From assembly GCA_951406725.2 (NCBI GenBank), contig OX597831.1, positions 60,202,001 through 60,266,000 of the forward strand: a DNA stretch of 64,000 nucleotides, given 5' to 3'. This stretch comes from Octopus vulgaris (taxonomy: Eukaryota). Below the pieces are notes generated by a model. That model had not been told where the DNA came from and searched no databases. It saw only the letters and a list, made by a program, of their open reading frames with translations. Numbering within the stretch: the first letter of the stretch is position 1; the number at the start of each line of letters is the position of its first letter. The position numbers and the translations under genes are program-made. Positions 10,392-59,980 of this stretch are shown here, in pieces.

Positions 10392-10621
10392 TTTTCTTTA
10401 CTGCCCACAAGGGGCTAAACACAGAGAGGACAAACAAGGACAGGCAAACGGATTAAGTCGATTATATCGACCCAGTGCGTAACTGGTACTTATTTAATCG
10501 ACCCCGAAAGGATGAAAGGCAAAGTTGACCTCGTCGGAATTTAACCTCAGAACGTAAAACAGGCGAAATACCACTAAGCATTTCGCCCGAGGTGCTAACG
10601 TTTCTGCCAGCTCGCCGTCTT
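10392..10621 (-). mobile_element. tRNA-head Meta-domain SINE (family M)
   Basis: Core gcctttcatcctt-cggggtcga-taaataagtaccag on the minus strand; diverged TSD accgaatg(c/t)atttt at 10374 and 10624. Confidence 0.85.
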
Positions 10622-13698: not shown

Positions 13699-14700
13699 CA
13701 CTGATGTAGAAACACTGTCTGAAAGACAGTGTTTCTACATCAGTGCAAGAACTGCAAGAACTCAAAAACACCCTAATTGACAGACATTACCCAGCTCACC
13801 TCATAGAAGATGGGATCAGATGTGCAACAGAAATCAACATAGAAACTTTAAGAAAAGTTCAACACAACAACACATCTTCCCCGAAAATACTACCTTACAT
13901 ATCTACATACAACCCCAGAAACAAAGAAGCCTTCACCATCATCACCCAGAATTTACCAATACTTCATAAGGACCCCAAATTAAAGGAAATTCTAAACATA
14001 CACCAAATCATTAAAAGCTACAAACAACCTAAAACACTCAAAAAATTCTCACAAAGGCAAAACTGTTTTCTGAAATTACAGATGCAAAAGTAAAAAAAAT
14101 GTCGTAGATCGAACTGTGCAACATGTCCAAACCTGCTAGAAGGATCAGAATTCCTCTTTAAAGAGGGACAGAAATTCAAGATCAAATCTAACTTTACTTG
14201 TGCCTCTGAAAACATAATTTGCTGCCACCAAGACTACGTGGGATCCACGGGACTATCACTCAGACGTAGATGCACACTGCATCGACAACAGATTGCATTC
14301 CCAGAATACAGAATAATACCTTTTAGTGAGCACATTGAGAAATGCGCAAAGCAACTACTACCACAATTTTTAATCTTTCCATTTTACCAATATGCTATCG
14401 GATCATCAACACAAATTAGACTAAACAAGGAAACATTCTTCATTGAAAAGTACAAGCCCAGACTTAACCATGCCAACATACTGATACAGAGAAATTCACA
14501 CCAAGAGAAAGGAAAAAAAATTAAGCGATTATCTCCCTTACACCGGAAGAAATCACTCATTACCTCCCCTTATTTAGAACTCTTTTAAACATAAACATAA
14601 CGATAACTCTATTCAACATAAACATAACGTCGTAAGAAATTTGAAAAGCTAAACGCGAAACCGGTCTTTCTTCTAAACTATGTCATTGTAAGGAAAAAAA
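13699..14700 (+). mobile_element. 5'-truncated Penelope element (RT thumb + Cys linker + GIY-YIG), frameshifted
   Basis: LQELKNTLIDRHYP..LPYISTYNP..SYKQPK..C..C..NFTCASEN..YVGSTG..HRQQI..IFPFY..ETFFIEKYKPRLN; same architecture as 35060-36120. Confidence 0.85.
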
Positions 14701-22292: not shown

Positions 22293-22524
22293 AAGGCGGC
22301 GAGCTGGCAGAAACGTTAGCACGCCGGGCAAAATGCGTAGCCATATTTCGTCTGCAGTTACGTTCTGTGTTCAAATTCCGCCGAGGTCGACTTTGCCTTT
22401 CATCATTTCGGGGTCAATAAATTAAGTATCAGTTACGCACTGGGGTCGATGTAACCGACCTAATCCGTTTGTCTGTCCTTGTTTGTCCTCTCTGTGTTTA
22501 GCCCCTTGTGGGTAATAAAGAAAC
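22293..22524 (+). mobile_element. Full-length Meta-domain SINE (family M) with 17-bp TSD
   Basis: A box tggcagaaacgtt, B box gttcaaattcc, Meta-like core, tail gccccttgtgggtaataaagaaa; TSD agatattggtga(c/g)ttcg at 22276-22292 and 22525-22541. Confidence 0.9.
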
Positions 22525-22701
22525 AGATATTGGTGAGTTCGTAGAAGGAACGTCTATGATAACGTACTTCGATCTAATCAAAAGTATAATCACAAATTAT
22601 GGTACTATGAATATTACTTGTTCTGAAATATATCAGTTATAATTTTCGAGCCCGTGGCCAAACAATAGCATATAACCGAGGAAACTGACATAGTATTATA
22701 T

Positions 22702-22933
22702 ATTTCTTTACTACACACAAGGGGCTAAACATAGAGGGAACAAACAAGGAGAGACACACGGAGTAAGTCGATTACATCGACCCCAGTGCGTAACTGGTAC
22801 TTATTTAATCGACCCCGAAAGGATGAAAGGCAAAGTCGACCTCGGCGGAATTTGAACTCAGAACGTAGCGGAAGACGAACTACCGCTAAGCATTTCACCT
22901 GACGTGCTAACGTTTCTGCCAGCTCGCCGCCTT
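22702..22933 (-). mobile_element. Full-length Meta-domain SINE (family M) with ~20-bp TSD
   Basis: TSD aaactgacatag(t/c)attatat at 22682 and 22934. Confidence 0.9.
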
Positions 22934-23847: not shown

Positions 23848-26800
23848 TGGTATAACCAGGTGGGCAGACTGGGCTCGTTAGCCTTGGCTGGCAGCCAGTC
23901 TAGGAGAAGGAAAACTCTGACTCCAAACCCTCGCTCCGCTGCCTTGCGGATGCTCTTGGGAGAGGGAAAGGCTATGGGAGTAAACCCAGACAGAAAATCC
24001 GGAGTGGAGCCCCGAAGGCGGTAGGGTGTCGAATCTCGACCCCTTCCCGGCAACTCCTGCAGCCAATTAGATTGCAAACGTACTGCACTGCATTCCTTTG
24101 GATTATGTCTGGGGGGCCGAGAGGGAGATTCTGGTGTCTGGGCAGCCCAGTGTCTTCGTTTCTACCGCCCAGGCTTGCGCCATGGAGAAACTACTCCATC
24201 GATGGAACAAGCTGAGATGGCAGTTACGAGTTATAAACCAGGGTGAATTGGCGTAATCCCGGGCGCTACGGTGGGAGGGATCATTTAAGTCCCACTGGTC
24301 AGCTACCGCCCGCCTTAAGCTGGGCAGCCCCCGGCCAATAATGGTGCTGACCCGCCACAGACTGCCCGCTTCAATGGGTGCTTGGAGCTAGGACAAAATC
24401 TGAAAAGCAGACTGAAAACCCTGCACCAGCATACAAAGGAAAAACAAACACCCAGTCACCAGTCTTGCGACTGGCCACCTGGAAGGTCAGGACCATGTGC
24501 CCTGGCATCATTGACGATCTACGACAGATGAACGACAGTAGGAAGACAGCAGTCATCAACACCGAATTGAAAAGGCTGAACATCGACATAGCGGCGCTGC
24601 GAGAGACCAGGCTCGCCGCAGACGGCATGCTAAGGGGAGAAGGACTACACCTTCTACTGGCAGGGGAGACCCGTCGAGGAGGCCCGCCAGCATGGCATGG
24701 GGTTTGCAGTGAGGAACAGCTTGCTCCCCATGGTGATCCCTCCTTCAAATGGCTCAGAGCGCATCCTCACTCTTAACCTTGCAACATCAACGGGGAAGGC
24801 AAACATAATTAGTGCTTATGCCCCAACACTCCACTCTCCTCAGGAAATAAAAGACCGGTTCTATGAGTAGCTCGACGCCACCATCAGCCAGATACCAGGG
24901 TCAGAGCCCATCTTCCTTCTGGGCGACTTCAACGCAAGGGTGGGATCCGATCATGGGGCATGGCCAGATTGCCTTGGACGCTTTGGCGTGGGGAAGGTGA
25001 ATGAGAATGGCCAGAGACTGTTGGAGCTTTGCTCTTACCGGAAACTCTGCGTTTCCAACACATTCTTCATGACTAAGCCGCATCACCAGGTCTCATGGAG
25101 GCACCCAAGGTCCGGACACTGGCACCGACTGGACATGGTCATCACCCGGCGAGCCCACCTCGGCAGTGTGCTTCTCCCACGCAGCTACTATGGTGCTGAC
25201 TGTGATACAGACCACTCTTTGGTGTGCACCAGGGTCCGATTGGCCCCAAAGAAAATCAACCGTCCCGTAGGGAAAAGTCGCCCACGCATCAATACCGCCA
25301 GGACAACCAACCCCGATCTCCGCTCGGAATTCACCAACCGCATGGAGGAGGCCCTTAAAGATCACGCAGCCAAGACTGGTTTGAAGCTCACCTGCCTGAG
25401 ATGGAGCCTGTCATAGCTGCCAAGAGGGAAGCACTGGTCAACTATAAGCGCGACCCATCAGAAAAGAACCTGGCTACTCTGAGAACAGCCAGAAGCGACG
25501 CCCAGAGGACGGCCAGACGTTGCGCCAACATCTACTGGCAGAACTTATGCCAGAACATCCAGTGCTGTGCTGACAGTGGTAACGTGAAAGGGATGTACGA
25601 GGGGATGAAGAAAGCATTCGGGCCCACTGTCAGAAAGGTTGCTCCACTGAAGTCCAGAGATGGCGAGGTCATCAAGGACCAAGCGAAGCAGATGGGGAGG
25701 TGGGTCGAGCATTACCAGAACCTCTACTCCACTGTGAATGTGGTCACCAGGTCTGCCCTCGCCGGCATTCCTGCTCTGCCTGTCATGGAGGAGCTTGACC
25801 TGCCTCCAACAAAGGAAGAACTGAGCAAAGCAATTGACTCACTCGCTCGGGGCAACGCACCAGGGCAAGACGGCATCCCCGCAGAAGTCATCCAGTGCGG
25901 GAAGCCAGCCCTTCTGGGCCATCTCCATGAGCTGCTCTGTCAGTGCTGGGAGGAGGGCTCTGTCCCTAAGGATATGCGTGACGCAAACATCATCACACTG
26001 TATAAAAACAAAAGGGACGGAAGCGACTGCAATAATTACAGGGGCACATCATTGCTCAGCACTCTTGGTAAGGCATTTGCCAGGGTGGTCCTGAAGAGGT
26101 TGCAAATACTTGCAGAGCGTGTGTACCCCGAGTCTCAGTCTGGCTTTAGGGCAGAGAGGTCTACAATTGACATGATCTTCTCACTCAGGCAGCTTCAAGA
26201 AAAGAGTCGAGAACAGAGACAGCCCCTATACGTGGCCTTCATCGACCTGGCTAAGGCGTTCGACTCAGTCAGCAGGGAGGGGCTGTTTGTGCTCCTGGGT
26301 AGGATAGGTTGCCCTCCCAGACTGCTGAAACTCATCACCTCCTTTCACGACGGTATGCAGGGAACAGTGCAGTTTGACGGATCGCCCTCGGAGTCATTCT
26401 CCATCCAGAGTGGAGTGAAACAGGGTTGCGTTCTGGCGCCGACGCTCTTCGGAATTTTCTTCTCCCTTGTCCTGTCCTATGCCTTCAGAACGTCCGACGA
26501 CGGAGTGTTCCTCCACACCAGGGTTGATGGTGGATTGTTCAATCTTGCGCGCCTCAGAGCTAAGACCAAAGTCCGTCAGGTGCTGATCAGAGAGATCCTC
26601 TTTGCTGACAGAGATCATGGGCCAGGACGTCGGAGGGGTCCCCAGCATCAGTGTCGGCGACCACAGCTTGCAGGTGGTGAACGAGTTTACTTACCTGAGA
26701 TCGACGGTCTCCGGCAGCCTGTCCCTCGAGCCGGAGCTGAACAGACGGATTGGGAAGGCTGCTGCTGCCATGGCTAAGCTCTCCAGGAGAGTGTGGGAAA

Positions 26801-27491
26801 ACAACATGCTCACAATAACCACCAAGATCGCAGTGTACCGAGCCTGCGTGCTGAGCACCCTACTCTACGGCAGCGAGAGCTGGACAACATACACCCGGCA
26901 GGAATGCCGCCTCAGCGGCTTGGACATGCGGTGTCTTCGACGGATCCTTGGCATCTCCTGGAAGGACCGAGTACCAAACGGATTCATCCTGGAACAGACT
27001 AATATGCCAAGCATGTATGCCCTCCTCGTTCGGAGACGACTGCGCTGGCTCGGACACGTCTGCCGCATGCAGGACGGTCGCATGCCTAAAGACATCCTGT
27101 ACAGCGAACTCACCACGGGATCCCGACCCAAGGGACGTCCACAGCTACGATACAGGGACGTGTGCAAGCGCGACCTGAGGACTGCCAACATCTGTGTGGA
27201 CACGTGGAAGGAATCAGCTGCTGACCGCTCTGCCTGGCGTCGGACGGTGAGGAAAGGCGTTTCCATGGCTGAGGAGAGGAGAGCACAGCTGTGGTTGGAC
27301 AGGCGGGACAGGAGGAGGACAACTGCAGCAACACACCACACGTACCCATCGATGTTCGTGTGCAGCAAATGTACCAAGGACTGCCACTCTAGAATTGGAC
27401 TGTTCAGTCACCGCAGACGCTGCACATCATCAAAGTAGGCCCCACCCTTGGCGCAACCCATTGTCCATCAAGACAGACGGGGAAGAAAGAA
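23846..27491 (+). mobile_element. RTE-clade (BovB-like) non-LTR retrotransposon, both ends present, inactivated
   Basis: ~530-nt 5' UTR, APE + RT + C-terminal Zn motif, short 3' UTR ending gaagaaagaa; flanked by (TA)n; much more GC-rich than the host. Confidence 0.95.
24378..27438 (+). pseudogene. RTE ORF: APE endonuclease, reverse transcriptase and Cys/His motif, disrupted
   Basis: LATWKVRT, DIAALRETR, SAYAPT, LLGDFNARVG, DCDTDHSLV; APGQDGIPAE, NYRG.SLL, SQSGFR, FIDL.KAFDSV, GVKQGCVLAPTLF, ILFAD; CSKCTKDCHSRIGLFSHRRRC; frameshifts, a stop at ~24868 and two internal deletions. Confidence 0.95.
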
Positions 27492-33412: not shown

Positions 33413-33545
33413 CCAACAAACATATGTGGAGAATATGAAATTATAGCTTGTAACATTGGTTTCAAATTTTGGCAAAAATCGACCATAGCGGCATTTGGAA
33501 CCAGCCACGGAAAGACAGACACTTTTTCCCGGCTTACTGATTATA

Positions 33546-33777
33546 TATTTCTTTACTACCCACAAGGGACTAAACATAGAGGGGACAAACAAGGACAGAC
33601 AAACGGATTAAGTCGATTACATCTACCCCAGTACTAAATTGGTACTTAATTTATCGACCCCGAAAGGATAAAAGCTAAAGTCGACATCGGCGGAATTTGA
33701 ACTCATAACATAACGGAGACGAAATACAGCTACGATTTCGCCCGGCGTGCTAACGGTTCTGGCAGCTCGCCGCCTTT
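33546..33777 (-). mobile_element. Meta-domain SINE (family M) with 15-bp TSD
   Basis: TSD cggcttactgattat at 33530 and 33779. Confidence 0.9.
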
Positions 33778-34560: not shown

Positions 34561-35059
34561 TGTAGTAGTGTTGACAGTCATGCTTCACAATTTTTGACTG
34601 TAGCAAGATGAGTGATTCTGTGCTATAAATACAGCTGGGTAGGCTCCAGAGTGCTAGGTTTTGCAAACTGTATTCTGACCAATCAGTGTGTAGTATCACT
34701 CAATTACTTAAGCTGATTGGTTGGTTGAGCTGATTGGTTTAGGCATCACGCTTTGTTGGACAGGTCAAGAGTCCTGTATCTTGACCCTGGCCGAAGCAGC
34801 AATTGTTGGGTTATTTTTAGAAATGTTGTAAATATCCTTTGTCAGAGATTTTTATATTTTTATATTTCAATTGTCATCATCATCATTGTCAGCACCTTAA
34901 TTATTGTTGCTAGTGGTGATGGTGGTGGCAATAGAACTTTTAACCCTAAATAAGATAATTTTCCTGCTATCTTCGTCTTGATCACCTTTAGTATTGTTGT
35001 TGTTGTTAGTGGTCATGGTCGTAGCAGTGGAAGTAATACCTCTAAGTATTATTATTATT

Positions 35060-36120
35060 GCTTATTTAGCTTGGGTTCGAATTTATCAATAAAATTCTTT
35101 TCTCTGATTTTCCTCTCGATTTCACTTGGGCTGTGTAATTTGTAGAATGGAAATATTATATATATTTTCCGACCACATATTGCTAGGTGGTTACTCAAAG
35201 GTATCTGACGGACCTCTGGGTCTCTAATCTGTTGCCGGTGTACACGTGAGCGTTCTAATAGTGCGTTTCCCGTCTGACCTACATATATTTCTTCACAATT
35301 TGGGCATTTGATGCAGTAAAATTAAATTTCTGCTTTTGCAGTTCATATTCGCGTTTGTGAATATTTTCCCGGTTTTTGTGTTTATATATTGACCGGTATG
35401 TATGGATTGGCATGTGCCACATCGGCTATCATTGCATTTAGATACCGTGAATGTTTGGTCTTTGTTGCTGAGGTCAAATTTTGCCTTTGTTAGTAATGTT
35501 TTCAAGTTTTTAGGCTGTCTTTTACTAAGCACCATAGCTCGATCCTTGATTATGTCTTTTAATTCATTACTTTGGGCAATGATTGGAAGGTTTGCTTTGG
35601 CAATGTTGAAGATATTCTGGTGACATGGGTTGTGTGTCACTATGAATGGTATGACTTGTTCTTGTTTTCCTCTTCCTTGGGTTGTCCTAAGTTTTTGTAT
35701 AGGTATTTTTATAGCCCGCTGTATGCCATTTTCTATAAGTAGAGATGGGTATTTTTGTTTGAGCAAAAATTCTCTTAGTTCTATTAGGCGTTTGTTCCTG
35801 ATATTTGCATCTTCTACAATAGTACAAATTCTTCTGGCTGGGCAGTATGGGATGTTACGTTTTGTATGTGGTGGATGGCACGACTTAAAATTTAGGTATT
35901 GATGTGTGTCTGTGTGTTTATAGTATATATCTGTGGTGATGGTGGTGTCTTTTTTAATTACCATTATATCCAGGAATGGTAATTTGGTACTACTCATCTC
36001 CTTTGTAAATTTGAGAGATGGGTGTAGGTTGTTCAGGAGGATATTGAACTCTTCCAGAGTATTTAGAGATTCTGTCCAGATTATGAAACAGTCGTCTAGG
36101 TATCTCTTCCATGCCTTTTC
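35060..36120 (-). pseudogene. Penelope RT (YLDD) + thumb + GIY-YIG remnant
   Basis: WKRYLDDCFIIW..LHPSLKFT..LPFLD..TDIYYK.TD.HQYL...SCHP.HTKRNIPY; CNDSRCGTC; after a frameshift IYVGQTG..HRQQIRDP..FIDKFEPKLN. Confidence 0.92.
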
Positions 36121-36139
36121 AATATATATATATATATAT

Positions 36140-36345
36140 GGTTAATCCAAACAAGAAAACACAAAAAAAACACAGCAACGCGAGGACTTGGAACAAATAA
36201 AGTATTATTGGACGCTAAGGAAAGAAGGGAAGAAGGAGGATTTAACGTTTCGAGCGGAGCTCTTCGTCGGAAACATAGGAGAAGGAAAGATCCCGAGAAG
36301 GGAAGACAGAGAAAAAAAATCGCTGGCGGTACTCACGAGGTCACA
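36140..36345 (-). mobile_element. PLE-type terminal repeat with hammerhead-like motif (36241-36275, core CCGACGA)
   Basis: uuu-CCGACGA-a-gagc ucc gcuc-GAAA-cgu-u-aaa; homologue of 8093-8298. Confidence 0.7.
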
Positions 36346-38766: not shown

Positions 38767-38886
38767 TAAGATTGTAGTGTAACAACAACAGGATGAAAGG
38801 CAAAGTCGACCTCGGTGGAATTTTAACTCAGAACGTAGCGGCAGACAAAATACCGCTGGACATCTCGCCCGGCGTGCTAACGTTTC

Positions 38887-40597
38887 TGATTTCTTTATTA
38901 CCCACGAGGGGCTACACAGAGGGGACACTACAAACATTGGGGACATAGAACATCACAATTACAAAGAATGAAAAATGAATTTTGAAAAATGATATTATGA
39001 AAGTAATGCTAACGGCCCCATCCGCTAGCATCACTTACCTGTCCTTCGTACCCTATCATCCATTGTTCTCCCCAATTTCAATACACATATTCTCCAAGTC
39101 CATAGCATATAATTTTTTTAAAATAATTCTTTATATTATCCCCAACTACCCTCTCCTCCACTATCACATTTCTATTTTCGCAACTCACTAACAGTCCATC
39201 CATTTGTTCCCTCTTCACCATTGCATATTTCCAGACCCCCTTTTCATACCCTAGATAACCCTCTAACATGTCTTTTATGACCTCTCTTTCTTTTTTTAAC
39301 CTACACAGAACAAAGCGCCCGGATTCGGTTTCAGTCTCTTGTCTGTGTGTATTACTTTTTTGTTTTCTTGTTGGAGGAGAGCGGGTGGGTTCACTGTCTG
39401 TAGGGATAGGGTGGGACTCAGAGGGTGTGGGTGGTGTTGGGTTGGATTGGTGTAGCGTGTTGTTTACCTTTCTCCTTCTTCTCTTTCTTTTTTCCTTCCT
39501 TCTTCCCACTCTTGCTGGATCTCCTCTTCTTATGTCGTTTCCTTCTCTGTCTGGATCTCTTCTTCTTTATTTTCTTCCTCCCTTGGGGGTTCCGCAACAA
39601 TTTCCTTTTCTCTTGGTGGGGCAGGGCAGAAGGCTCTTATGTGACCCCTCAGGCCACACTTATAGCAACTGGGCGCCCTGCCCTCCACCCACACTCTCAT
39701 AATCACGTCTCCCAATCTGATGTTTTCTGTTAGGTCCACCAGTACCTCGTTCTCTGCCTGCACATTCAGTTCCACTGTCACGCCTCTCCAGCCCTCGGTC
39801 TTAACCGAGGCATGGAGGATGTCCACTTCCGCCTCGTGGCCGCTAATCACAGCCGCCACTATCCACTCAGCCTCAACGTTTGGGGGCACTCCCTCGACCC
39901 TTACTCTAGTAATTTTTCTATTTAGATACGTAGGCAAAAGTATTACCTTCTCGGATTTCACCGCCTTCGCCGCCATCTTCCCTGCTGCCTTCTCACTTTT
40001 GAACTGTACTACTACAGTACCATATTTTGAACCTCTCGAAAGAAATTCGATTTCCTCTTCCGTTCTTCTTAGCGCCTCATTTATCCATTCCATATTCACC
40101 ACTTCTATCTTTTTCTTTTCGCTTGCGAACACCCTGTATATGATGGTCCTTTTCTCGTACCATTCCTTTCTCTTTGGTGGTGGTGCCAGTTCGACCTCAC
40201 CGCTGTCCTTCCTCATATACCTCTGGAAACCTGGCAATTTTTCTAGGTTTATTTCCTTTTCCTGTGCCGTCTTCTTTTTTGCAACTCATGCGTACGTTTT
40301 CCTGTTTTTTATCTCCACATTATTTACATCACTGATTTGCTCGTCTTCAGAGGTCGATGTCTCCGACAAGTTCTCAAATATCCATTCCTCCTCCGACTCC
40401 TCCACTAGGGAGTGGTCGTCCATTTCCCTCTGTCTGACAGGCCGAAAACGGCCGCCCGAACAGAAACAGTGTAACGCGCAGAACCAGTGAAACGCGAAAC
40501 CGCATCAACGACGTTAAAAATTTCTACAACAACAACAATTCTTTTTGTTCTTTTTTACAAATTTTCACGAGCCGAGAAAAACACAACCGACGTCAAA
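38887..40597 (-). mobile_element. ORF1-only (HAL1-like) non-autonomous non-LTR retroelement
   Basis: 17-bp TSD cggcgtgct(a/g)acgtttc at 38870-38886 and 40598-40614; single gag-like reading frame; no RT or endonuclease; 3' end cccctcgtgggtaataaagaaat. Confidence 0.85.
39078..40423 (-). pseudogene. L1/Tx1-type ORF1 protein: acidic N-terminus, RRM-like repeats, CCHC knuckle, extra C-terminal region
   Basis: ATG at 40423 (MDDHSLVEESEEEW); VVVQFKS..TRVRVEGVPP; CYKCGLRGHIRAFC; two stops and one frameshift near 39490; about 448 codons when repaired. Confidence 0.85.
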
Positions 40598-41379
40598 CGG
40601 CGTGCTGACGTTTCGTCCAGCTCGCCGCCTTATAAGTATGATATTGTTATTACCTTAGAATGGGTTACAAGATAAGTTTCGTTAGAGATTTATTCAAAAC
40701 TGTTAGACGAAATATAAGCAATATACAAATCGACTGACACACCTGTTTAGGTAATACAGTCAAGCTGGCAGACAACAATCTATTTTTATACTTGTAAAAT
40801 TTTGCATTATTGCAACGATGTGGCATTTTAAAATAATCGGGGGCCTTATATTTCACTCTGAAAGAAATTCAACTTGAAAAAAGCTAGAACTACCAATAAA
40901 GCTATTATTTAAAGTGCATACATTTAAAATGAGTGAGGAGTGTTAGAATTTGTTTATCATATTAAATACTATAATTACTGTCTAGACAATAACGTTTTCA
41001 CAAAAGAATTTCTTTGATAGTTGTCGGGAAAGAATCTTCTTACGTTACTTCCAAATAATATTTAATCGAATTCTGCCACACTGTTTCTCCCTCGAAGGGG
41101 GAAGCAGCTAAGTATTAAAATGTCAAATAGAAGAAAAGAAAACAACTAAACAAAACAGAAAAAAAAGCAAAAGGAGAATGTTTGTATTGTTATTCAAAAT
41201 CTATTTTATTTTTTATTGTCTTATTCTATATATAGCGTGTAAATAAAATTTCTTATCCTGTTTCTTCATTTTTCGGATTGTTACATTTGATAAAATCTTT
41301 ACATTTAATATCTTAATTCTCTCTTCCTGTTGTCGGGAAGTTTCCCAGGTGTTATTTTTGTGTTAATAATTTTATATTG

Positions 41380-43350: not shown

Positions 43351-43484
43351 ATATATAGTTATATATAGTTATATATAGTCTTTTAATTATCGTGTAAGTT
43401 CACGTCTTGAATATAGATTGAATATGACAGAAATTCTGAGTTGAGCCAATAGTTGTAGATAGCATGTTATATTTCATGTTTAAG

Positions 43485-43920
43485 GCTACCAGCTGGTTGA
43501 ACCGTTAGGACACGGCAAAATACTTACCGGCATTTTGTCCTACTTTTTGTTTGGAGTACATATTCCACGGAGGTCACCTTTGCCTTCCATCCTTTGGGAG
43601 CTTCATTAAAAAGTACTTGTTGAGTAGTGGGGACGATGTAATTGACTTACCCCTTCCTTATATTGCTGGCCTTGTTCGAAAAAATTTGGAAAGCAATAGT
43701 TCATTAAACTAAGGCGGAAAACCGGCAGAATTCTCACCACACAAGACAAAATGCTTAGCATCATTACATCCGTTTTTATGTCCTGAGTTTATATTGTGCC
43801 GAGATCAAATTTGCCTGTAATCGTTTCGGAGTGGATAAAATATGTACCATTTGAGTAGTCCGGTCGATGTAAAATGGCTAACACTTTCCCCGGAAACTGC
43901 TGGTATTATGCCAAAATTTC
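43485..43920 (+). mobile_element. Two old decayed Meta-domain SINE copies in tandem
   Basis: gaggtcacctttgccttccatcctttggg..aagtac and aaggcgg..ggcagaat..tttcggagtggataaaatatgtacca. Confidence 0.55.
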
Positions 43921-45106: not shown

Positions 45107-46400
45107 TTAACCCTTCGTGTACCAGACAAAATATATGTCATTAATTGCCAACTGGGTCCAATGGACCCAATATTTTTCTTTTGTGTTTTATTGAAACTAC
45201 CACTGTTTCTTAACTACATTATATATGCCATCAGGTAAATGAAAAATTACTGTTTCTAACAAATTTAAATATAAAAACTACGGCTTTCAGAATATATTAT
45301 AAATTTTTTAAATGACAAAATGCAGAATTACAGCATCTCATGGCAGGGAATGCTGACAGCATTGGAATGTTCTTGGCAAACAGGGATATGGATATTACAA
45401 TTCTTACATGTAGGACGAGTTTTCCTTCCTGTCTTCTTTGGGTCACACAAAGAACATCTTTCTTTGTTCTTTAGCTAAGGGATCGCAAATGGGGTTGAAG
45501 ATCGTTTTCTTTTCTAGTTCGTTTGAGAAGTGTTAGCGGAACTAGAAGATTGTTTGTCATGTTCTTGTTTAGCATTAACTCCAGCAAGTTCCTTCCTAAG
45601 ATAATTAGGCACTGTCTTCTTTTATCCAAGAAACTTTGAAAGTGAAGCTGTTTAGCAACGATGAAAGCATTGGCTGCAATTATATCAATAATGTATAATA
45701 TAACCATAGGCCGTCTTCAAGTAATTCTTTTGCAACCGTATGTCCTTACCATCTTATCTAGGGTATCTACGCCTCCTTTTGTTTTGTTGTAACATATAAT
45801 AGCCTCAGGTTTCTTTTCAGCACTTTTTGAATCAATTGAAGGCTGCGAGTGCATTGTACTCATAAGTGTGACTACATAATTTTTCTTGGGACAATAAGCT
45901 AGGAACATAAAATTCTTTTGAAATCCAACTATATAACACGATAAACAAACCTGGAGCGTTCCAAGTCAAACCTTAGTCCGGTACCCGCATTGGTACCACC
46001 TTTTACCATGCGAGATGTGATGTCAGTGCGATTAATCTAAAAAGACAGATTTGTTGGAGGTGCCAGTGATTTTCCACTTCCCATACAAATGTATATAAGA
46101 AAGACTCAGAATGCATAAATAATTCAGAACGCACTAAATGAAACAAATTCGAGATTTTTGCACTTCCGAAGTTCCTACAACAGGTATTTTTCTATATCTA
46201 GATGAAATAATTTTAGAGGAACTTATTAAACTTTGTTCCTCAGCCCAGGACTTCATTAAATTCAGTCTAAACAAGTTGATATCATATCTAGGTTTAGAGG
46301 AAATATCTTTAAATTTTAGAAAGCTCAGTTTTCACAAATGCATCCACCATAAACAATATTCTCCTTCTCATGACGGCAATTACAATTAGGTGAATTTTGA
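45107..46400 (-). mobile_element. piggyBac transposon remnant
   Basis: TTAA+CCCTT end at 45107; VTLMSTMH..KKPEAI..YNKTKGGVDTLDKM, IAANAFIV, C-terminal RCSLC..CKNC..VCQEH; extent beyond ~45930 uncertain. Confidence 0.85.
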
Positions 46401-52062: not shown

Positions 52063-53742
52063 AGTATCCTTAATAATGCACTGCTAGGCAAATAGTGGTG
52101 GCAAATTGGCAGACTTTTAAAACATCGGCTAGCATGTTATATGCTATATTTTTGCAGTCGTTGCACTCTGAGTTCAAATCACCTTTGCTTAATTCTCATT
52201 CCTCTCTGTCAATATTTCCCGCTCGAAGCATTGTATTAACGGAATAGTTCTACTGACGGAACAGTTTTTTACACTGTTTTGTTTTGTTCTCTTTCCATCG
52301 GCTTCTTAATGTTCAGCTTTACTTAACTTTTACCAATACCATGTGTATTGCAACTCATTGACATCAAGCAAATTGCTTATAAATAATGGTGTACCTGTGA
52401 AATTGTACTGTGTACCCAAAGTAATGTAGAATTAATATTAAAGAATTATGTCTGTGCAAAACCACAGCGTTATTTTTAAATGTATGCCCAATATTATACA
52501 CGTGTGCATGCGGTGATACCTATGCATTCGATCAATCTAGTAAATATTGACACAAGTCGCAAATCCCACATTAATATCTAGAGTATAATGTAAAAGATGA
52601 CATTTACATTAGAAAATTCCTGGAGAGTCTGATGGAAATGAATATGGAGGATTATGGAGGATTGAGTGTTACAACTTCCCATTACTGATATATTAGCGCA
52701 GGAATGTGAAACAAGGATCCTCACAGAATTAAACTTCATTTCATTTGAAATGCAAGATATAAAAGCAATTTATTGAGAAGAGCGATACGTCTATTTGAGA
52801 AGGTTAAATCTCATATGTAACTGGTATCTTCGTATTTTTCTTTGCTTTGTTTCAGAAAGTTTTAAACAACATAGCATAAGTCTACACTTAGTTGCATTCC
52901 ATGTTACATTTATCTCAGAATATGCCTTCTGTGAATTCATTACCTTTTAAACCAGCTCTATTTTATCGAGGACGAAACCTGTACATTTTTGGAAAGCGAA
53001 ATGCATTATACTGACTTTTCCCATTTCTGCATTAACTGTTACACAAATAAGTAAAGAAGAAAAGAATTTCAACCAAGTTTTCAAATACAGGCTTAGCGTG
53101 ATAAGAATTTAATCTACATTATTTGCTACGGTGCATTGTGAAATATTGATTTGTTTTATACCAGCCTTGACATCCTCAATATTGTCATTCAACATTGCGT
53201 CTTTATTCTATAAAAGTGATTACAATAACACAATGAATGCTGCAATGTATTATCTTTAGATAAAAGTATACCAGGGAGACTCTACGTTGTCACTTGACCT
53301 TCTAGAACTGGAAGCAAAATAACATTAATACTACAACAGACTTAAAAATCGAGGTGATACTTACTTTTGGAAAATTTTGGTCACAGGTCTTTTCAAACAT
53401 TCTTTGGCAAACAGAATAAGAACAGCAACAACAACACGTTTTTATACTGTTTTATTTGTAGATGAATATATTTCACTAATACGTTTAACATGCTGCCTTT
53501 TAATTTGATATTTGTTCCGATAATTAAATTTTAATTCCCGAGGAGAAAACTACAATATTTTATGACTATAATCTCCTTATATTAAAGAATATTGTATTTA
53601 ATGCCCTTGGAAATCCCTTTTTGGGAAGTAAAATTTATGAGCAGAACATAAAATGTCTTAACGAGTATAGTGAGGCCTTTTCATTTATCATTTGAAATAA
53701 TACCCAATATTTTGATCCATTACCCGATTATATTAAATATCT

Positions 53743-53966
53743 ATTTCTTTACTACCCATACGGGCTAAACACAGAGGGAACAAACAATGACAGACAAACG
53801 GATTAAGTCGATTACATCGACCCCAGTGGGTTACTGGTACTTAATTTATCGACCCCGAAAGGATGAAAAGCAAAGTCGACCTCGGAGGCATTTGAACTCA
53901 GAACGTAAAGGCAGGCGAAATACAGCTACGCATTTCGCCCGGCGTGGTAACGTTTCTGCCAGCTCA
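53743..53966 (-). mobile_element. Meta-domain SINE (family M)
   Basis: High similarity to 22702-22933. Confidence 0.88.
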
Positions 53967-56999: not shown

Positions 57000-58050
57000 T
57001 GCATGAGTATTTAGAATGATATTGCGACTCACTGAACACTTTCTTAAATCCATTTTTTAGCCCGTATGTTTTACTTTATGTAGTAAGATACAGACTGTTT
57101 ATCAGTCATATATTTATAAGTTCCACACAGTTTGTGTCAAATTTATTGGGTAATAGATATTTCTTAGCCTTTAAGATATTGAAAACAAGCAAGGTTTACC
57201 AAGATTTCTTTCAACAACCATTTGACTCAAATTTTTTTTCCATTACTGAACGCAAGCAATTAGTATTTTCAGCCACTTCACCTCTTGTTTGTAAGGTTTC
57301 TTTAGAATCAACAACATAGAGTTGAGCATATCTTCTAGGTGCATTGTTTTTAGGATGTAAGTTGTTTACATGATGATAGACTTGTCTTTGCAAGTGGAAA
57401 CAGTATAGGCCACAACCGGGGGATGATGTAATATTGGCTCCAAATGAGGCGCTTGAATACATTGTATAATAGTTTCTGATGTTCTGTCCAAAGTTCATTC
57501 CTTCAATGTCGGTATTCTCCAAAAGTAGTTTTAACTGGTCAGGATATTCTTGTAGATTCGGGAAGGAGACCTTACCATTATGGCAACAATTAAGTACTTC
57601 CTGCGGAAATCTACGTGCATGACAGTTTGAGCATACTATGTTCATCTCACTAATCGTAAATTGAGAATTTTGTTGTTCTTAATTTATATTCCATCTTCTT
57701 ATTTGAGCTCTGTCTGTCATAAGATAATTATGTGTTTCAGCTTCTTCAATATTTTTCCTTCTTAAACTCAGTTTCTCATATTTTCTAAGTACAGCAGCTT
57801 CTGCTCTTAACTCATGTGTTCTCGATTCTGTTGATCACTATCTCTCTTATTTTGAAAATACACTTCTCTTTGATCCTGGCTGATTTATTTCCCTCCCATC
57901 CCGTAGGATACGCTCCTTCTCCCCTTGACTTATTTCGTTCCGTCTGTGTCTCATCCTCGCATGATTTGTATTCCTTATTTCCGACTGCTGGTCTTCGCGC
58001 AATCGTTCTCTCCTTCTGCGCTGATGGTCACGCACTGCGTCTCACATGTG
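57000..58050 (-). pseudogene. Helitron RepHel N-terminal remnant
   Basis: MNIVCSNCHARRF..NCCHNGKV..FGQNIRNY..ASFGA..YCF.LQ.QVYH..LHP..PRRYAQLYVVD, preceded by an R/E-rich helical region. Confidence 0.85.
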
Positions 58051-58069: not shown

Positions 58070-59980
58070 AACATGTTAAACGTGTTCTTTAAACATGTTT
58101 ACAATAGTATTCTCCGAGAAAAGGATTAGAAATTGTTCTTCGTTGCAGAGCGGACAAAAAAACTTACATTTGTCATATGGGAAGGATCTAGATGGAATAT
58201 CCCATTCCAAATCGAATTGTTTACTGTTTCTTTAGAGACCAGATTGATTTACTAAGCCCAGTATTGTTGCGTTTATGAATATATCTCAATGTAGAGTAAT
58301 GGATCGATATTCTTTTCGATAATTGAGACGATGAGCTATATAAATAAAAAAGACATCAGAACCGGAAGTAACTTTATATTGATAAGCAGAGTTTCTAGTT
58401 TTACAATAACTGTTAAGGAAGCGAATCCGATTCGAATTCATATAAAAAATACTTATATTGTTGTTATTATTGCCCAAATAATTATTAGCGTTAATAAACT
58501 CACTGTTATTATATTCATCAAGTTGATTTGTATCTAACAACTTATTGCTATGGGAAGAGATGATTTGTAAAACGTTTTTCGTGTTTGAAAACCCTATTCT
58601 GATTCGGTGTGAATTGATAATATGATGGTGTCTTGAATTTGGAGGGAAACTCATAACTTTAGTTTCACGAAAGTGGTAAAGGAGGTTGGATTTGATCTGC
58701 TTATCATGTGGAATGATCAGCGAAAGATTTACTATGATACATCTCGTTATTAGGGTAATTAGCTTTGAAAGACCCACACTTATTGTTATTATGCATAAAG
58801 GTATAAAAGGATGGTTAACTCCCTTACGCTGGAAATTACATTTTTCGATTTAGTGTTGTTAATCGACCTAAAATTTATATTGTTATTACCGTTATGACGT
58901 GTTTTCATGTCCTGATTAATAAGGGTAGAATTAATGTCAATAGAGTTAATATAGGTATTTCTTTTTCTTTATAGCCTGCTTTAAGTAAGATAGACTTATA
59001 AAATTCCGGGTTTATCGTTGAAGACACCTACATTAGCAGATAATCTACAAAGTCTCAGTGAAATGTTTCTAGGTTTCTTGCAATACCCTGTGCATAAGTA
59101 CTGAAAGAGCTAATATATTTCAATTTAGTTGTGGGAAATATGTGTCATTATATAAGTTAAGAGTAATAACCAAAAAGTTGGCTTTAGTTATATCATCATC
59201 AAAAATAATGTTCATCCCATGTTTCGGAAAAATTAATCAACCTAAATTTTACCCTTTGTAACTTTCGGTTTAAAATATCTTGAATATTAAGTAGGAAATC
59301 ATCACAATATAAACCTCCATTGATGTTTGGGAATTGGTCAGCCATCTCATAAACGATATACATACCGCCCAAATCAGCCAACTGTGTTAAGTCAGAACTT
59401 CCCGTCGTGAAATCAAAACTTTCAGGCGTATCTTTATAGAGGAATAGCTGATTTTCAAATTTGATGATTGATTTTCTTTCAGCTAACACCTCATTAATTT
59501 CGTCTCGGGTGAGATCTGGTTTTTTGTGTGAAAACCAGAGTGCTTTGTTGAGTACAATCGGGTTAATTGACGAATAGTAATTACAAAAGTCGAACTGAAT
59601 AAACTTAGTGCGCTTCTTCTTATTAATAGAATTAAACCAGTCGCCCGCTTGGAATGAAGTAGACACTAAATTAAGCTTTAACTTTTTAACTAAAGAACGA
59701 ATATATTTATCTAGAATATTTTCGCTAAATACACCGATATCAGAACTAGAAGGACAAATAAATCATAAGGTTTGCTTGTGGTCTTTTAAAATGAAAAGTG
59801 GTTGTTTGGGATCATGAGGTTGAATCTTCATCTCTAAGTCATATTTCTCCATAATTTTCTTGGCCTCAAGGTTGGCTTTCCTGATAGCACTTTTACCAGT
59901 AATCCTGTAAGTATTTTATATTTCTTTCTTGAGAAGTTCTAGATATTAATCTTTGTAACTCTGTTTTTTATTTTCTGTTT
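58070..59980 (-). pseudogene. Decayed Penelope-like element (RT, linker, GIY-YIG, CxLC tail)
   Basis: LICPSSSDIG, WFNSI..KFIQFD..NYYSSI, FDFTTGS.D, GGLYCDD, AYQYKV..IYI, PYDK..CPLCNEE; same type as 7340-7870. Confidence 0.85.

What the first reader, a model, noticed from the sequence alone, without database searches (positions are those of the whole stretch)
38790..40631. ORF1-only retroelement that shares its 3' tail with the SINE family it has inserted into
Seen: a 1711-bp unit bounded by a 17-bp TSD (1 mismatch) splits a family-M SINE in its tRNA head, in the same orientation. It holds one gag-like frame (RRM-like + CCHC) and only ~190 nt of 3' UTR, with no RT or endonuclease. Its last ~40 nt (gtcccctctgtgtagcccctcgtgggtaataaagaaat) nearly match the family-M tail (gtcctctctgtgtttagccccttgtgggtaataaagaaa). 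Established: SINEs take 3' tails from partner LINEs, and HAL1 elements encode only ORF1. Inference: a three-part system in which an unseen autonomous L1/Tx1-like RT mobilises both an ORF1-only helper and the SINE through one 3' signal. It could also be a split LINE with ORF1 and ORF2 on separate elements.
Basis: partly seen in the sequence, partly recalled or inferred. Interest (0 to 1): 0.85.

Follow-up and report, generated by a model that had tools for sequence, protein, structure and literature searches.

The report
Octopus half-LINE sharing the SINE tail
This is a broken copy of a repeated octopus mobile element that encodes a predicted RNA-binding protein but no copying enzyme, ends in the same 40-base tail as an abundant short repeat, and so likely borrows the same, still unidentified, reverse transcriptase to spread.

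Summary
Anatomy confirmed: a 1711-bp minus-strand insert (38887-40597) between 17-bp duplications (1 mismatch) splits a family-M SINE head. Its last ~40 nt match the tail of all 5 other family-M copies in the window, far above shuffles. Correction: the ORF is broken here (two stops, one frameshift). It has two predicted RRM-like domains plus one CCHC knuckle. Named relatives are octopod proteins; 0 of 150 best hits carry an EN/RT domain.

Both proposed refutations largely fail. Contigs from 4 public runs show other copies with other 3' flanks, and one contig runs from the ORF end through the UTR to the tail with no ORF2. The same call shows tail-to-5'-end joints, a hint of tandem copies.

Verdict: an ORF1-only non-autonomous LINE family that works like HAL1, likely Tx1-related and likely mobilised in trans through the shared tail. 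The RT partner was not found, and a helper role is untested. ORF1-only LINEs are known from three other clades. I found no report of this octopus family, but Repbase and Dfam could not be searched. New variant of a known kind.

The parts
40615..40631 (-). 5' piece of the host family-M SINE head
   Evidence: 85-91% identical to the heads of 5 other copies; coordinates
40598..40614 (-). upstream copy of the 17-bp target-site duplication (SINE head sequence)
   Evidence: 1 mismatch to 38870-38886
38887..40597 (-). ORF1-only non-autonomous LINE copy, 1711 bp, 45% GC, near full length
   Evidence: a joint in run X2 suggests the family 5' end is only about 6 nt longer (table 5c)
40424..40597 (-). 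5' UTR, 174 nt; internal promoter inferred; T5 runs at 40581 and 40520 would stop Pol III read-through from the SINE head
   Evidence: promoter role is inference
40289..40423 (-). ORF1 start and acidic N-terminus, cut by a stop at 40288-40286 that the laid contigs of all 4 runs do not show
   Evidence: table 3
39926..40180 (-). predicted RRM-like domain 1 (residues 36-120 of P0003)
39674..39925 (-). predicted RRM/ferredoxin-like domain 2 (residues 121-204)
39623..39670 (-). single CCHC zinc knuckle
   Evidence: Pfam zf-CCHC E=0.025, below the curated cut-off; 19 of 30 aligned members match
39331..39532 (-). acidic/basic and proline-rich linker with a stop (39532-39530) and a frameshift
   Evidence: the shifted frame matches O. 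sinensis protein P0005 (E=4e-11)
39078..39330 (-). 83 open codons plus stop, of unknown origin: not the C-terminal domain of the full-length relatives; possibly the tip of a deleted ORF2 (recalled resemblance, untested)
   Evidence: no informative hit
38928..39077 (-). 3' UTR upstream of the tail; below about 39046 it is shared with a far more abundant set of sequences
38889..38927 (-). 3' tail shared with family-M SINEs (short predicted hairpin, then AATAAA-containing end)
38870..38886 (-). downstream copy of the target-site duplication
38790..38869 (-). rest of the host SINE (B-box region inferred), 3'-truncated at 38790
10393..10621 (-). other family-M SINE copy (TSD 14 nt)
22293..22527 (+). 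other family-M SINE copy (TSD scored 20 nt, end overlaps the SINE head)
22697..22933 (-). other family-M SINE copy (TSD scored 20 nt)
33542..33776 (-). other family-M SINE copy (TSD 15 nt)
53736..53965 (-). other family-M SINE copy, 5'-truncated (TSD weak, 8 nt)

Best explanation
The 1711-bp unit is a near-full-length, now broken copy of a repeated octopus non-autonomous LINE that encodes only an ORF1-type protein (two predicted RRM-like domains and a zinc knuckle) and ends in the same ~40-nt tail as the family-M SINE, and it is likely copied in trans by the reverse transcriptase of an unseen, probably Tx1-related LINE that would recognise that tail. Shown: TSD, tail sharing, ORF1-only layout in a second copy, other insertion sites, ORF1 fold prediction. 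Inferred steps: (1) the family arose by internal deletion of a two-ORF LINE, keeping the 5' UTR, most of ORF1, possibly the tip of ORF2, and the 3' UTR; (2) it is transcribed from its own 5' UTR; (3) the partner's ORF2 protein binds the tail, nicks the target and primes reverse transcription, leaving a 14-20-bp TSD as for the SINE; (4) this copy landed in an older SINE and then decayed (about 2% from its nearest relatives). Whether the ORF1 protein helps the partner or only packages its own RNA is untested.
For: TSD and A-rich end. Tail similarity far above shuffles in 5 of 5 SINE copies; SINE TSDs 14-20 nt in 4 of 5. 20 of 24 listed runs, in 10 studies and under 4 organism labels, hold part of the insert interior. 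In the 4 runs laid: X6 record 26 (525 nt, 11 differences, 1 gap) runs from 39384 through the stop and UTR to the tail and then has 26 letters unlike this locus. X4 record 18 crosses the stop at 4 times the flank depth with 13 differences. X1 record 1, X4 record 17 and X6 record 27 carry UTR plus tail with 64, 231 and 459 other flank letters. Summed depth stays 5-39 times the flank over 39047-39318 in X1, X2 and X4, with no dip at the ORF-UTR junction. All 10 of 20 looked-up relatives that name a species are octopods. 0 of 150 best hits carry EN/RT. Model pLDDT 90.8 with two RRM-like domains, the type I ORF1 layout of PMC4120745. 12 of 20 listed differences in the ORF1 core are synonymous, against 27% expected (P=0.002). 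O. vulgaris has 13 recently active L1-Tx1 families averaging about 5.4 kb (PMC13282606).
Against: No RT-encoding element with this tail was seen anywhere. The only contig that spans the whole ORF-end-to-tail stretch has depth 2 and comes from a run only guessed to be RNA; no contig spans the whole element. Summed contig depth is not a copy number. The Tx1 link is weak: Atlas score 0.90 with 163 shared features (under the 170 typical of true members), and no member of alignment A1 matched the ZCCHC3 Pfam models among the 25 of 29 families shown. Type I ORF1s occur in several clades. The synonymous test rests on 28 coding sites from the 40 best-supported of 212 differences; the C-terminal segment gave 0 of 8; the synonymous excess may come from two-ORF relatives. 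Absence of RT fusions is expected even for two-ORF LINEs. The tail hairpin is short and unstable in 1 of 6 sequences.
Confidence: 0.65

Rival explanations
1. Split LINE: ORF1 and ORF2 sit on separate, mutually dependent elements that share the tail; this unit is the obligate ORF1 half.
For: No EN/RT fusion in 150 hits or in two length-class searches. Synonymous excess in the ORF1 core. Summed depth over the 5' UTR is comparable to that over the 3' UTR in X1 and X2, a weak hint that ORF1 relatives are short and mostly full-length. The last ~160 nt are shared with sequences that differ upstream.
Against: Recently active O. vulgaris L1-Tx1 insertions average about 5.4 kb, which fits two-ORF elements. 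This copy's ORF1 lacks the C-terminal domain kept by full-length relatives. No ORF2-only partner was seen.
Confidence: 0.1
2. Chimera with a borrowed tail: an ORF1-bearing transcript picked up the SINE's 3' end by template switching and then spread using whatever RT moves family M, which need not be related to this ORF1.
For: Similarity to the SINE stops after about 40-50 nt. ORF1 and tail swapping is described in PMC4120745 and PMC4824008 (passages).
Against: The ~120 nt of UTR upstream of the tail belong to a much more abundant non-family-M set (600-1400 times flank), as expected for a LINE 3' UTR. The tail has a 2-nt indel against the SINE copies, so it is not a recent copy of one.
Confidence: 0.13
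3. One-off deletion of an ordinary two-ORF LINE at this locus, seen elsewhere only as alleles or segmental duplicates.
For: The ORF is broken; the C-terminal segment may be an ORF2 remnant; only one low-depth contig spans the full 3' part.
Against: That contig has a different 3' flank. The junction region is held at 23-25 times flank depth in three runs under three organism labels, with diverged contigs (13 and 22 differences) across it.
Confidence: 0.07
4. Two independent SINE pieces mimic a TSD, and the tail is a stray SINE fragment.
For: The duplicated 17 bp occur in every family-M head.
Against: The 5' piece ends exactly where the repeat ends and the 3' piece begins exactly where it begins. 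UTR and tail are joined in contigs with other flanks in 3 of 4 runs.
Confidence: 0.03

Closest known systems
HAL1 (half-L1), mammals
   Same: Non-autonomous LINE derivative encoding only ORF1p (PMC5753468 and PMC5786205, passages)
   Different: HAL1 derives from L1, whose ORF1 is type II (coiled coil, one RRM, CTD). This one has two RRM-like domains and a CCHC knuckle, has no poly(A) run, and shares a specific tail with a SINE
HeT-A (Drosophila, Jockey clade) and Ag-Sponge (Anopheles, CR1 clade)
   Same: ORF1-only LINE derivatives. Head-to-tail arrays are recalled for HeT-A; tail-to-5'-end joints are seen here
   Different: This copy is interstitial with a 17-bp TSD and a 191-nt 3' UTR; the telomeric role and long UTR of HeT-A (recalled) do not apply
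Tx1-clade LINEs, including Tx1-Mar with SINEU in crocodilians
   Same: Tx1 elements often prefer other repeats or RNA genes as targets and can mobilise SINEs (PMC4494074, abstract and passages). Atlas lead to ZCCHC3-like tandem RNA-binding domains; the link of that family to Tx1 ORF1 is recalled
   Different: No RT here, so clade membership cannot be tested. SINEU was tied to Tx1-Mar by target preference; here the tie is a shared tail
Stringent SINE-LINE tail pairs (e.g. bivalve SINEs with CR1 or L2)
   Same: Shared 3'-terminal sequence with a possible stem-loop (PMC4824008, passages)
   Different: Here the tail is shared with an RT-less element, so a third party is required
Octopus tRNA-derived SINEs OK/OR1/OR2 (Ohshima and Okada 1994)
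   Same: Family M is an abundant ~235-nt octopus SINE and may be one of these (citations only; the name OK is recalled)

Membership tests
Non-LTR retrotransposon insertion (TPRT product) | Variable-length TSD, A-rich 3' end, no terminal repeats | tested here: met
   17-bp TSD, AATAAA-containing end, no terminal repeat in self-BLAST
ORF1-only non-autonomous LINE (HAL1/HeT-A/Ag-Sponge type) | Encodes ORF1 but no endonuclease or RT | tested here: met
   second copy without ORF2 (X6 record 26)
ORF1-only non-autonomous LINE (HAL1/HeT-A/Ag-Sponge type) | Amplified as a unit, with independent insertion sites | tested here: met
   Other 3' flanks in 3 of 4 runs; junction held at 23-25 times flank depth. 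TSDs of other copies could not be read
ORF1-only non-autonomous LINE (HAL1/HeT-A/Ag-Sponge type) | Related autonomous LINE with matching 5' and 3' parts | not testable with these tools
   No genome held; pattern and locus scans of viral, prokaryote and metagenome collections were empty
ORF1-only non-autonomous LINE (HAL1/HeT-A/Ag-Sponge type) | ORF1 kept under purifying selection within the ORF1-only lineage | tested here: inconclusive
   12 of 20 synonymous in the core, 0 of 8 in the C-terminal segment, from a partial list mixing subfamilies
HAL1 proper | L1-type (type II: coiled coil, single RRM, CTD) ORF1p | tested here: not met
   Two RRM-like domains plus CCHC; types as in PMC4120745
Type I LINE ORF1 | At least one RRM immediately upstream of a CCHC knuckle | tested here: met
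   Predicted domains 36-120 and 121-204, knuckle 206-221
Tx1 clade | RT/endonuclease phylogeny | not testable with these tools
   The element has no RT
Tx1 clade | ORF1 similar to ZCCHC3-like tandem RNA-binding domains (link recalled) | tested here: inconclusive
   Atlas rank 7, score 0.90, 163 shared features; no direct Pfam match shown
Tx1 clade | Target-sequence preference | tested here: inconclusive
   One further SINE-head-to-5'-end joint in X1 at 2 times flank depth; other copies have other flanks
Stringent SINE-LINE tail pair | Shared 3'-terminal sequence | tested here: met
   5 of 5 copies
Stringent SINE-LINE tail pair | Conserved stem-loop with compensatory changes | tested here: inconclusive
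   A 4-bp hairpin is predicted in 5 of 6 tails; covariation not tested
HeT-A-like telomeric element | Telomere-specific head-to-tail arrays | tested here: inconclusive
   This copy is interstitial with a TSD; tail-to-5'-end joints occur in X1 and X2, location unknown
LTR retrotransposon or provirus | Long terminal repeats and a 4-6-bp TSD | tested here: not met

The most novel reading that the evidence does not exclude
Octopuses carry a split LINE system: RT-less ORF1 elements, some in head-to-tail arrays and some aimed at SINE heads, supply the RNA-packaging protein in trans to an ORF2-only partner, and together they drove the SINE expansion through one shared 3' signal.
Probability: 0.1. Interest if true: 0.85.

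Novelty: new variant of a known kind. Interest (0 to 1): 0.52.

Why it matters
SINEs make up 11.6% of the O. vulgaris genome (PMC13282606), and my searches found no paper naming the LINE that moves this family. The element ties the SINE tail to an ORF1 type and to about 120 nt of extra 3' UTR. That gives a specific probe for pulling out the partner, and points to a two-ORF, Tx1-like LINE rather than the single-ORF RTE and Dong elements highlighted in octopus brain work (PMC9115989). It would also add a probable fourth origin of ORF1-only LINEs, after the L1, Jockey and CR1 cases listed in PMC5786205, in a system where ORF1 action in trans and competition for one RT can be tested.

Tried and rejected

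Word-indexed protein searches were nearly blind: 0 hits for the read-through protein, 0 for alignment A1 at 1508-4305 aa, 2 at 88-1507 aa. They are weak evidence on fusions. The top phmmer hit P0004 and P0145 match only through zinc knuckles and were left out of the alignment; 29 of 150 hits were aligned.

Tail patterns found nothing in metagenome, viral or prokaryote collections. Locus searches found nothing.

The ORF2-remnant idea for 39081-39330 could not be tested: no Pfam hit, Atlas scores 0.82, one likely chance PDB hit, single-sequence model pLDDT 38, not searched.

The window's RTE-type LINE was rejected as the partner: its 3' end scores 15-16 against the tail, the level of shuffles. 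Rfam and ARAGORN do not call the SINE head. A motif search of the MetaSINE supplement did not identify family M; file 1 of 2 was not searched. No RNA holder listed; X6 is only guessed to be RNA, so expression is not claimed. Whether the insertion is present at this locus under organism labels B and C could not be told (contigs end at 40610). Earlier findings of the scan: none. Bao and Jurka 2010 is not held. Repbase, Dfam, SINEBase and the Zenodo library of PMC13282606 could not be searched; the family may already be there as an L1-Tx1 or unknown consensus.

Full report
Observation. On the minus strand the sequence reads: SINE head (40631-40615), 17-bp repeat (40614-40598), 1711-bp insert (40597-38887), second copy of the repeat with 1 mismatch (38886-38870), rest of the SINE to 38790. 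Five other family-M copies lie in the window, 87-89% alike. The 5' piece ends where the repeat ends and the 3' piece begins where it begins, which is TSD geometry. The host SINE has lost its 3' half. The insert has a 174-nt 5' UTR and a 191-nt 3' UTR. Its last ~40 nt align to all five SINE tails with scores of 44-59; none of 500 shuffles per test exceeded 30. Four of the five SINE copies have TSDs scored at 14-20 nt; the fifth, 5'-truncated copy gave a weak 8 nt.

The ORF. It is broken: stops at 40288-40286 and 39532-39530, a frameshift near 39465-39530, and a final stop at 39080-39078. The shifted frame matches the proline-rich linker of O. sinensis protein P0005, so the pieces were one gene. 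phmmer found 340 proteins at E<=0.001. Of 20 looked up, 10 name a species: nine Octopus and one Argonauta. I therefore infer an octopus genome. None of the 150 best hits has a Pfam endonuclease or RT domain (28, 122); this is weak evidence, since two-ORF LINEs also give separate proteins. The AlphaFold model (pLDDT 90.8) has two tandem RRM-like domains. All 25 Foldseek hits at E<=0.001 are RRM-domain RNA-binding proteins; VIA-align gives best Z 8.2, rmsd 2.6 over 76 residues, to a Ro60/La complex chain, with ACT-type folds scoring similarly for the second domain. A CCHC knuckle follows. This is the type I ORF1 layout, found in several LINE clades (PMC4120745, passages). The Atlas gives a borderline lead to ZCCHC3-like domains (0.90, 163 features); their link to Tx1 ORF1 is recalled. 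The last 83 codons are open (chance 3e-4 per frame) but do not match an HMM of the C-terminal domain of six full-length relatives. From memory they resemble an L1/Tx1 ORF2 tip; four attempts to test this gave nothing.

Family or accident? No genome is held. 20 of 24 listed runs, in 10 studies and under 4 organism labels, hold part of the insert interior. I laid 4 of them at 82% likeness; all are assembled contigs, so depth is only an order-of-magnitude guide. X6 record 26 runs from 39384 through the stop and UTR to the tail (11 differences, 1 gap in 499 nt) and then continues with 26 letters unlike this locus: a second copy with no ORF2, though at depth 2. X4 record 18 crosses the stop at 4 times flank depth. 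X1 record 1, X4 record 17 and X6 record 27 join UTR and tail to other flanks. Summed depth over 39047-39318 is 5-39 times the flank in X1, X2 and X4, and 23-25 times in the junction bin. The stop at 40288 is not shown by the laid contigs of any run, and close relatives differ by about 2% (X6 record 26, X4 record 23), so this copy likely decayed after insertion. No contig spans the whole element. Among the listed coding differences, 12 of 20 in the core are synonymous against 27% expected (P=0.002), but 0 of 8 in the C-terminal segment. Only the 40 best-supported of 212 differences were shown; I classified 28 coding sites and left out the stop site.

Two leads beyond the finding. (1) Depth jumps from about 24 times to 600-1400 times flank below 39046, and X6 record 27 leaves the alignment at 39044 with 74 other letters. 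The last ~160 nt are thus shared with a far larger set that differs upstream: sibling families or the RT partner. (2) Joints from a tail directly to the element's 5' end occur in X2 (40599 to 38887, 51 times flank) and X1 (40591 to 38891, 3 times). One further X1 joint (40599 to 38876, 2 times) puts a SINE head directly before the 5' end. These hint at tandem arrays and at repeated use of the SINE head as a target. The tail in those joints could be the SINE's, and side lengths were not shown.

Mechanism. Shown: TSD, shared tail, ORF1-only layout, other sites. Inferred: transcription from the element's own 5' UTR (T runs at 40581 and 40520 would stop Pol III read-through from the SINE head), tail recognition by a partner ORF2 protein, and target-primed reverse transcription, as established for SINE-LINE pairs (PMC4824008, passages). 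The window's RTE-type LINE has an unrelated 3' end. O. vulgaris has 13 recently active L1-Tx1 families with 421 insertions over 2.29 Mb, about 5.4 kb each, and 80 L1-Tx1 families in all (PMC13282606, parts 1-2 of 3 and a supplement search), so plausible two-ORF partners exist. Whether they carry this tail is unknown. I put 0.65 on a non-autonomous derivative moved in trans, 0.13 on a borrowed tail, 0.10 on a split LINE, 0.07 on a one-off deletion and 0.03 on a false TSD.

Comparison and novelty. ORF1-only LINE derivatives are known: HAL1 (L1), HeT-A (Jockey), Ag-Sponge (CR1) (PMC5786205 and PMC5753468, passages). This element works like them but fails the L1-type ORF1 test for HAL1 proper. Tx1 elements can prefer other repeats as targets and mobilise SINEs (PMC4494074, abstract and passages). 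Searches for an octopus ORF1-only element or a named partner of this SINE found none (listings). Passages read in PMC9115989, PMC4758252 and PMC8967140 do not describe it. Ohshima and Okada 1994/2005 and Bao and Jurka 2010 were not readable, and Repbase, Dfam, SINEBase and the Zenodo library could not be searched, so an existing unlabelled consensus is quite possible. Verdict: real, multi-copy, a new variant of a known kind; interest 0.52. Its value is as a probe for the RT behind an abundant octopus SINE.

Noticed in passing
window 24871-27480 (+): Frameshifted LINE with endonuclease (Exo_endo_phos) and RT (RVT_1) pieces; RTE type judged from recalled C-terminal features; its 3' end is unlike the family-M tail
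   Followed up: partly
window 35058-36141 (-) and 13710-14588 (+): GIY-YIG domain next to a 282-aa frame, Penelope-like; a similar-looking fragment near 14.1 kb had no Pfam hit
   Followed up: no
window 45720-45965 (-): DDE_Tnp_1_7 transposase fragment, piggyBac-like by recall
   Followed up: no
window 43482-43649 and 43711-43872 (+): Two adjacent older SINE-related copies, about 69-70% to the family-M head and body, apparently with a different 3' end
   Followed up: no
window 57211-57678, 58286-58849, 59199-59762 (-): Decayed frames that look Helitron-like and Penelope-RT-like by eye; no Pfam hit
   Followed up: no
window 38887/40599 joints: Tail joined directly to the element's 5' end at 51 times (X2) and 3 times (X1) flank depth: possible tandem arrays
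   Followed up: partly
window 39450-39633: A contig in X1 and one in X2 skip 182 nt that include the acidic linker: an internally deleted relative at about single-copy depth
   Followed up: no
window 39112-39113: Several relatives have one base less in a homopolymer run near the ORF end, so the last codons differ among copies
   Followed up: no
proteins P0054, P0101, P0115, P0128: Gene models that include pieces of this ORF1 family next to unrelated sequence (LDLa, C2H2 fingers, WD40 in three of them): annotation artefacts or exonised copies
   Followed up: no
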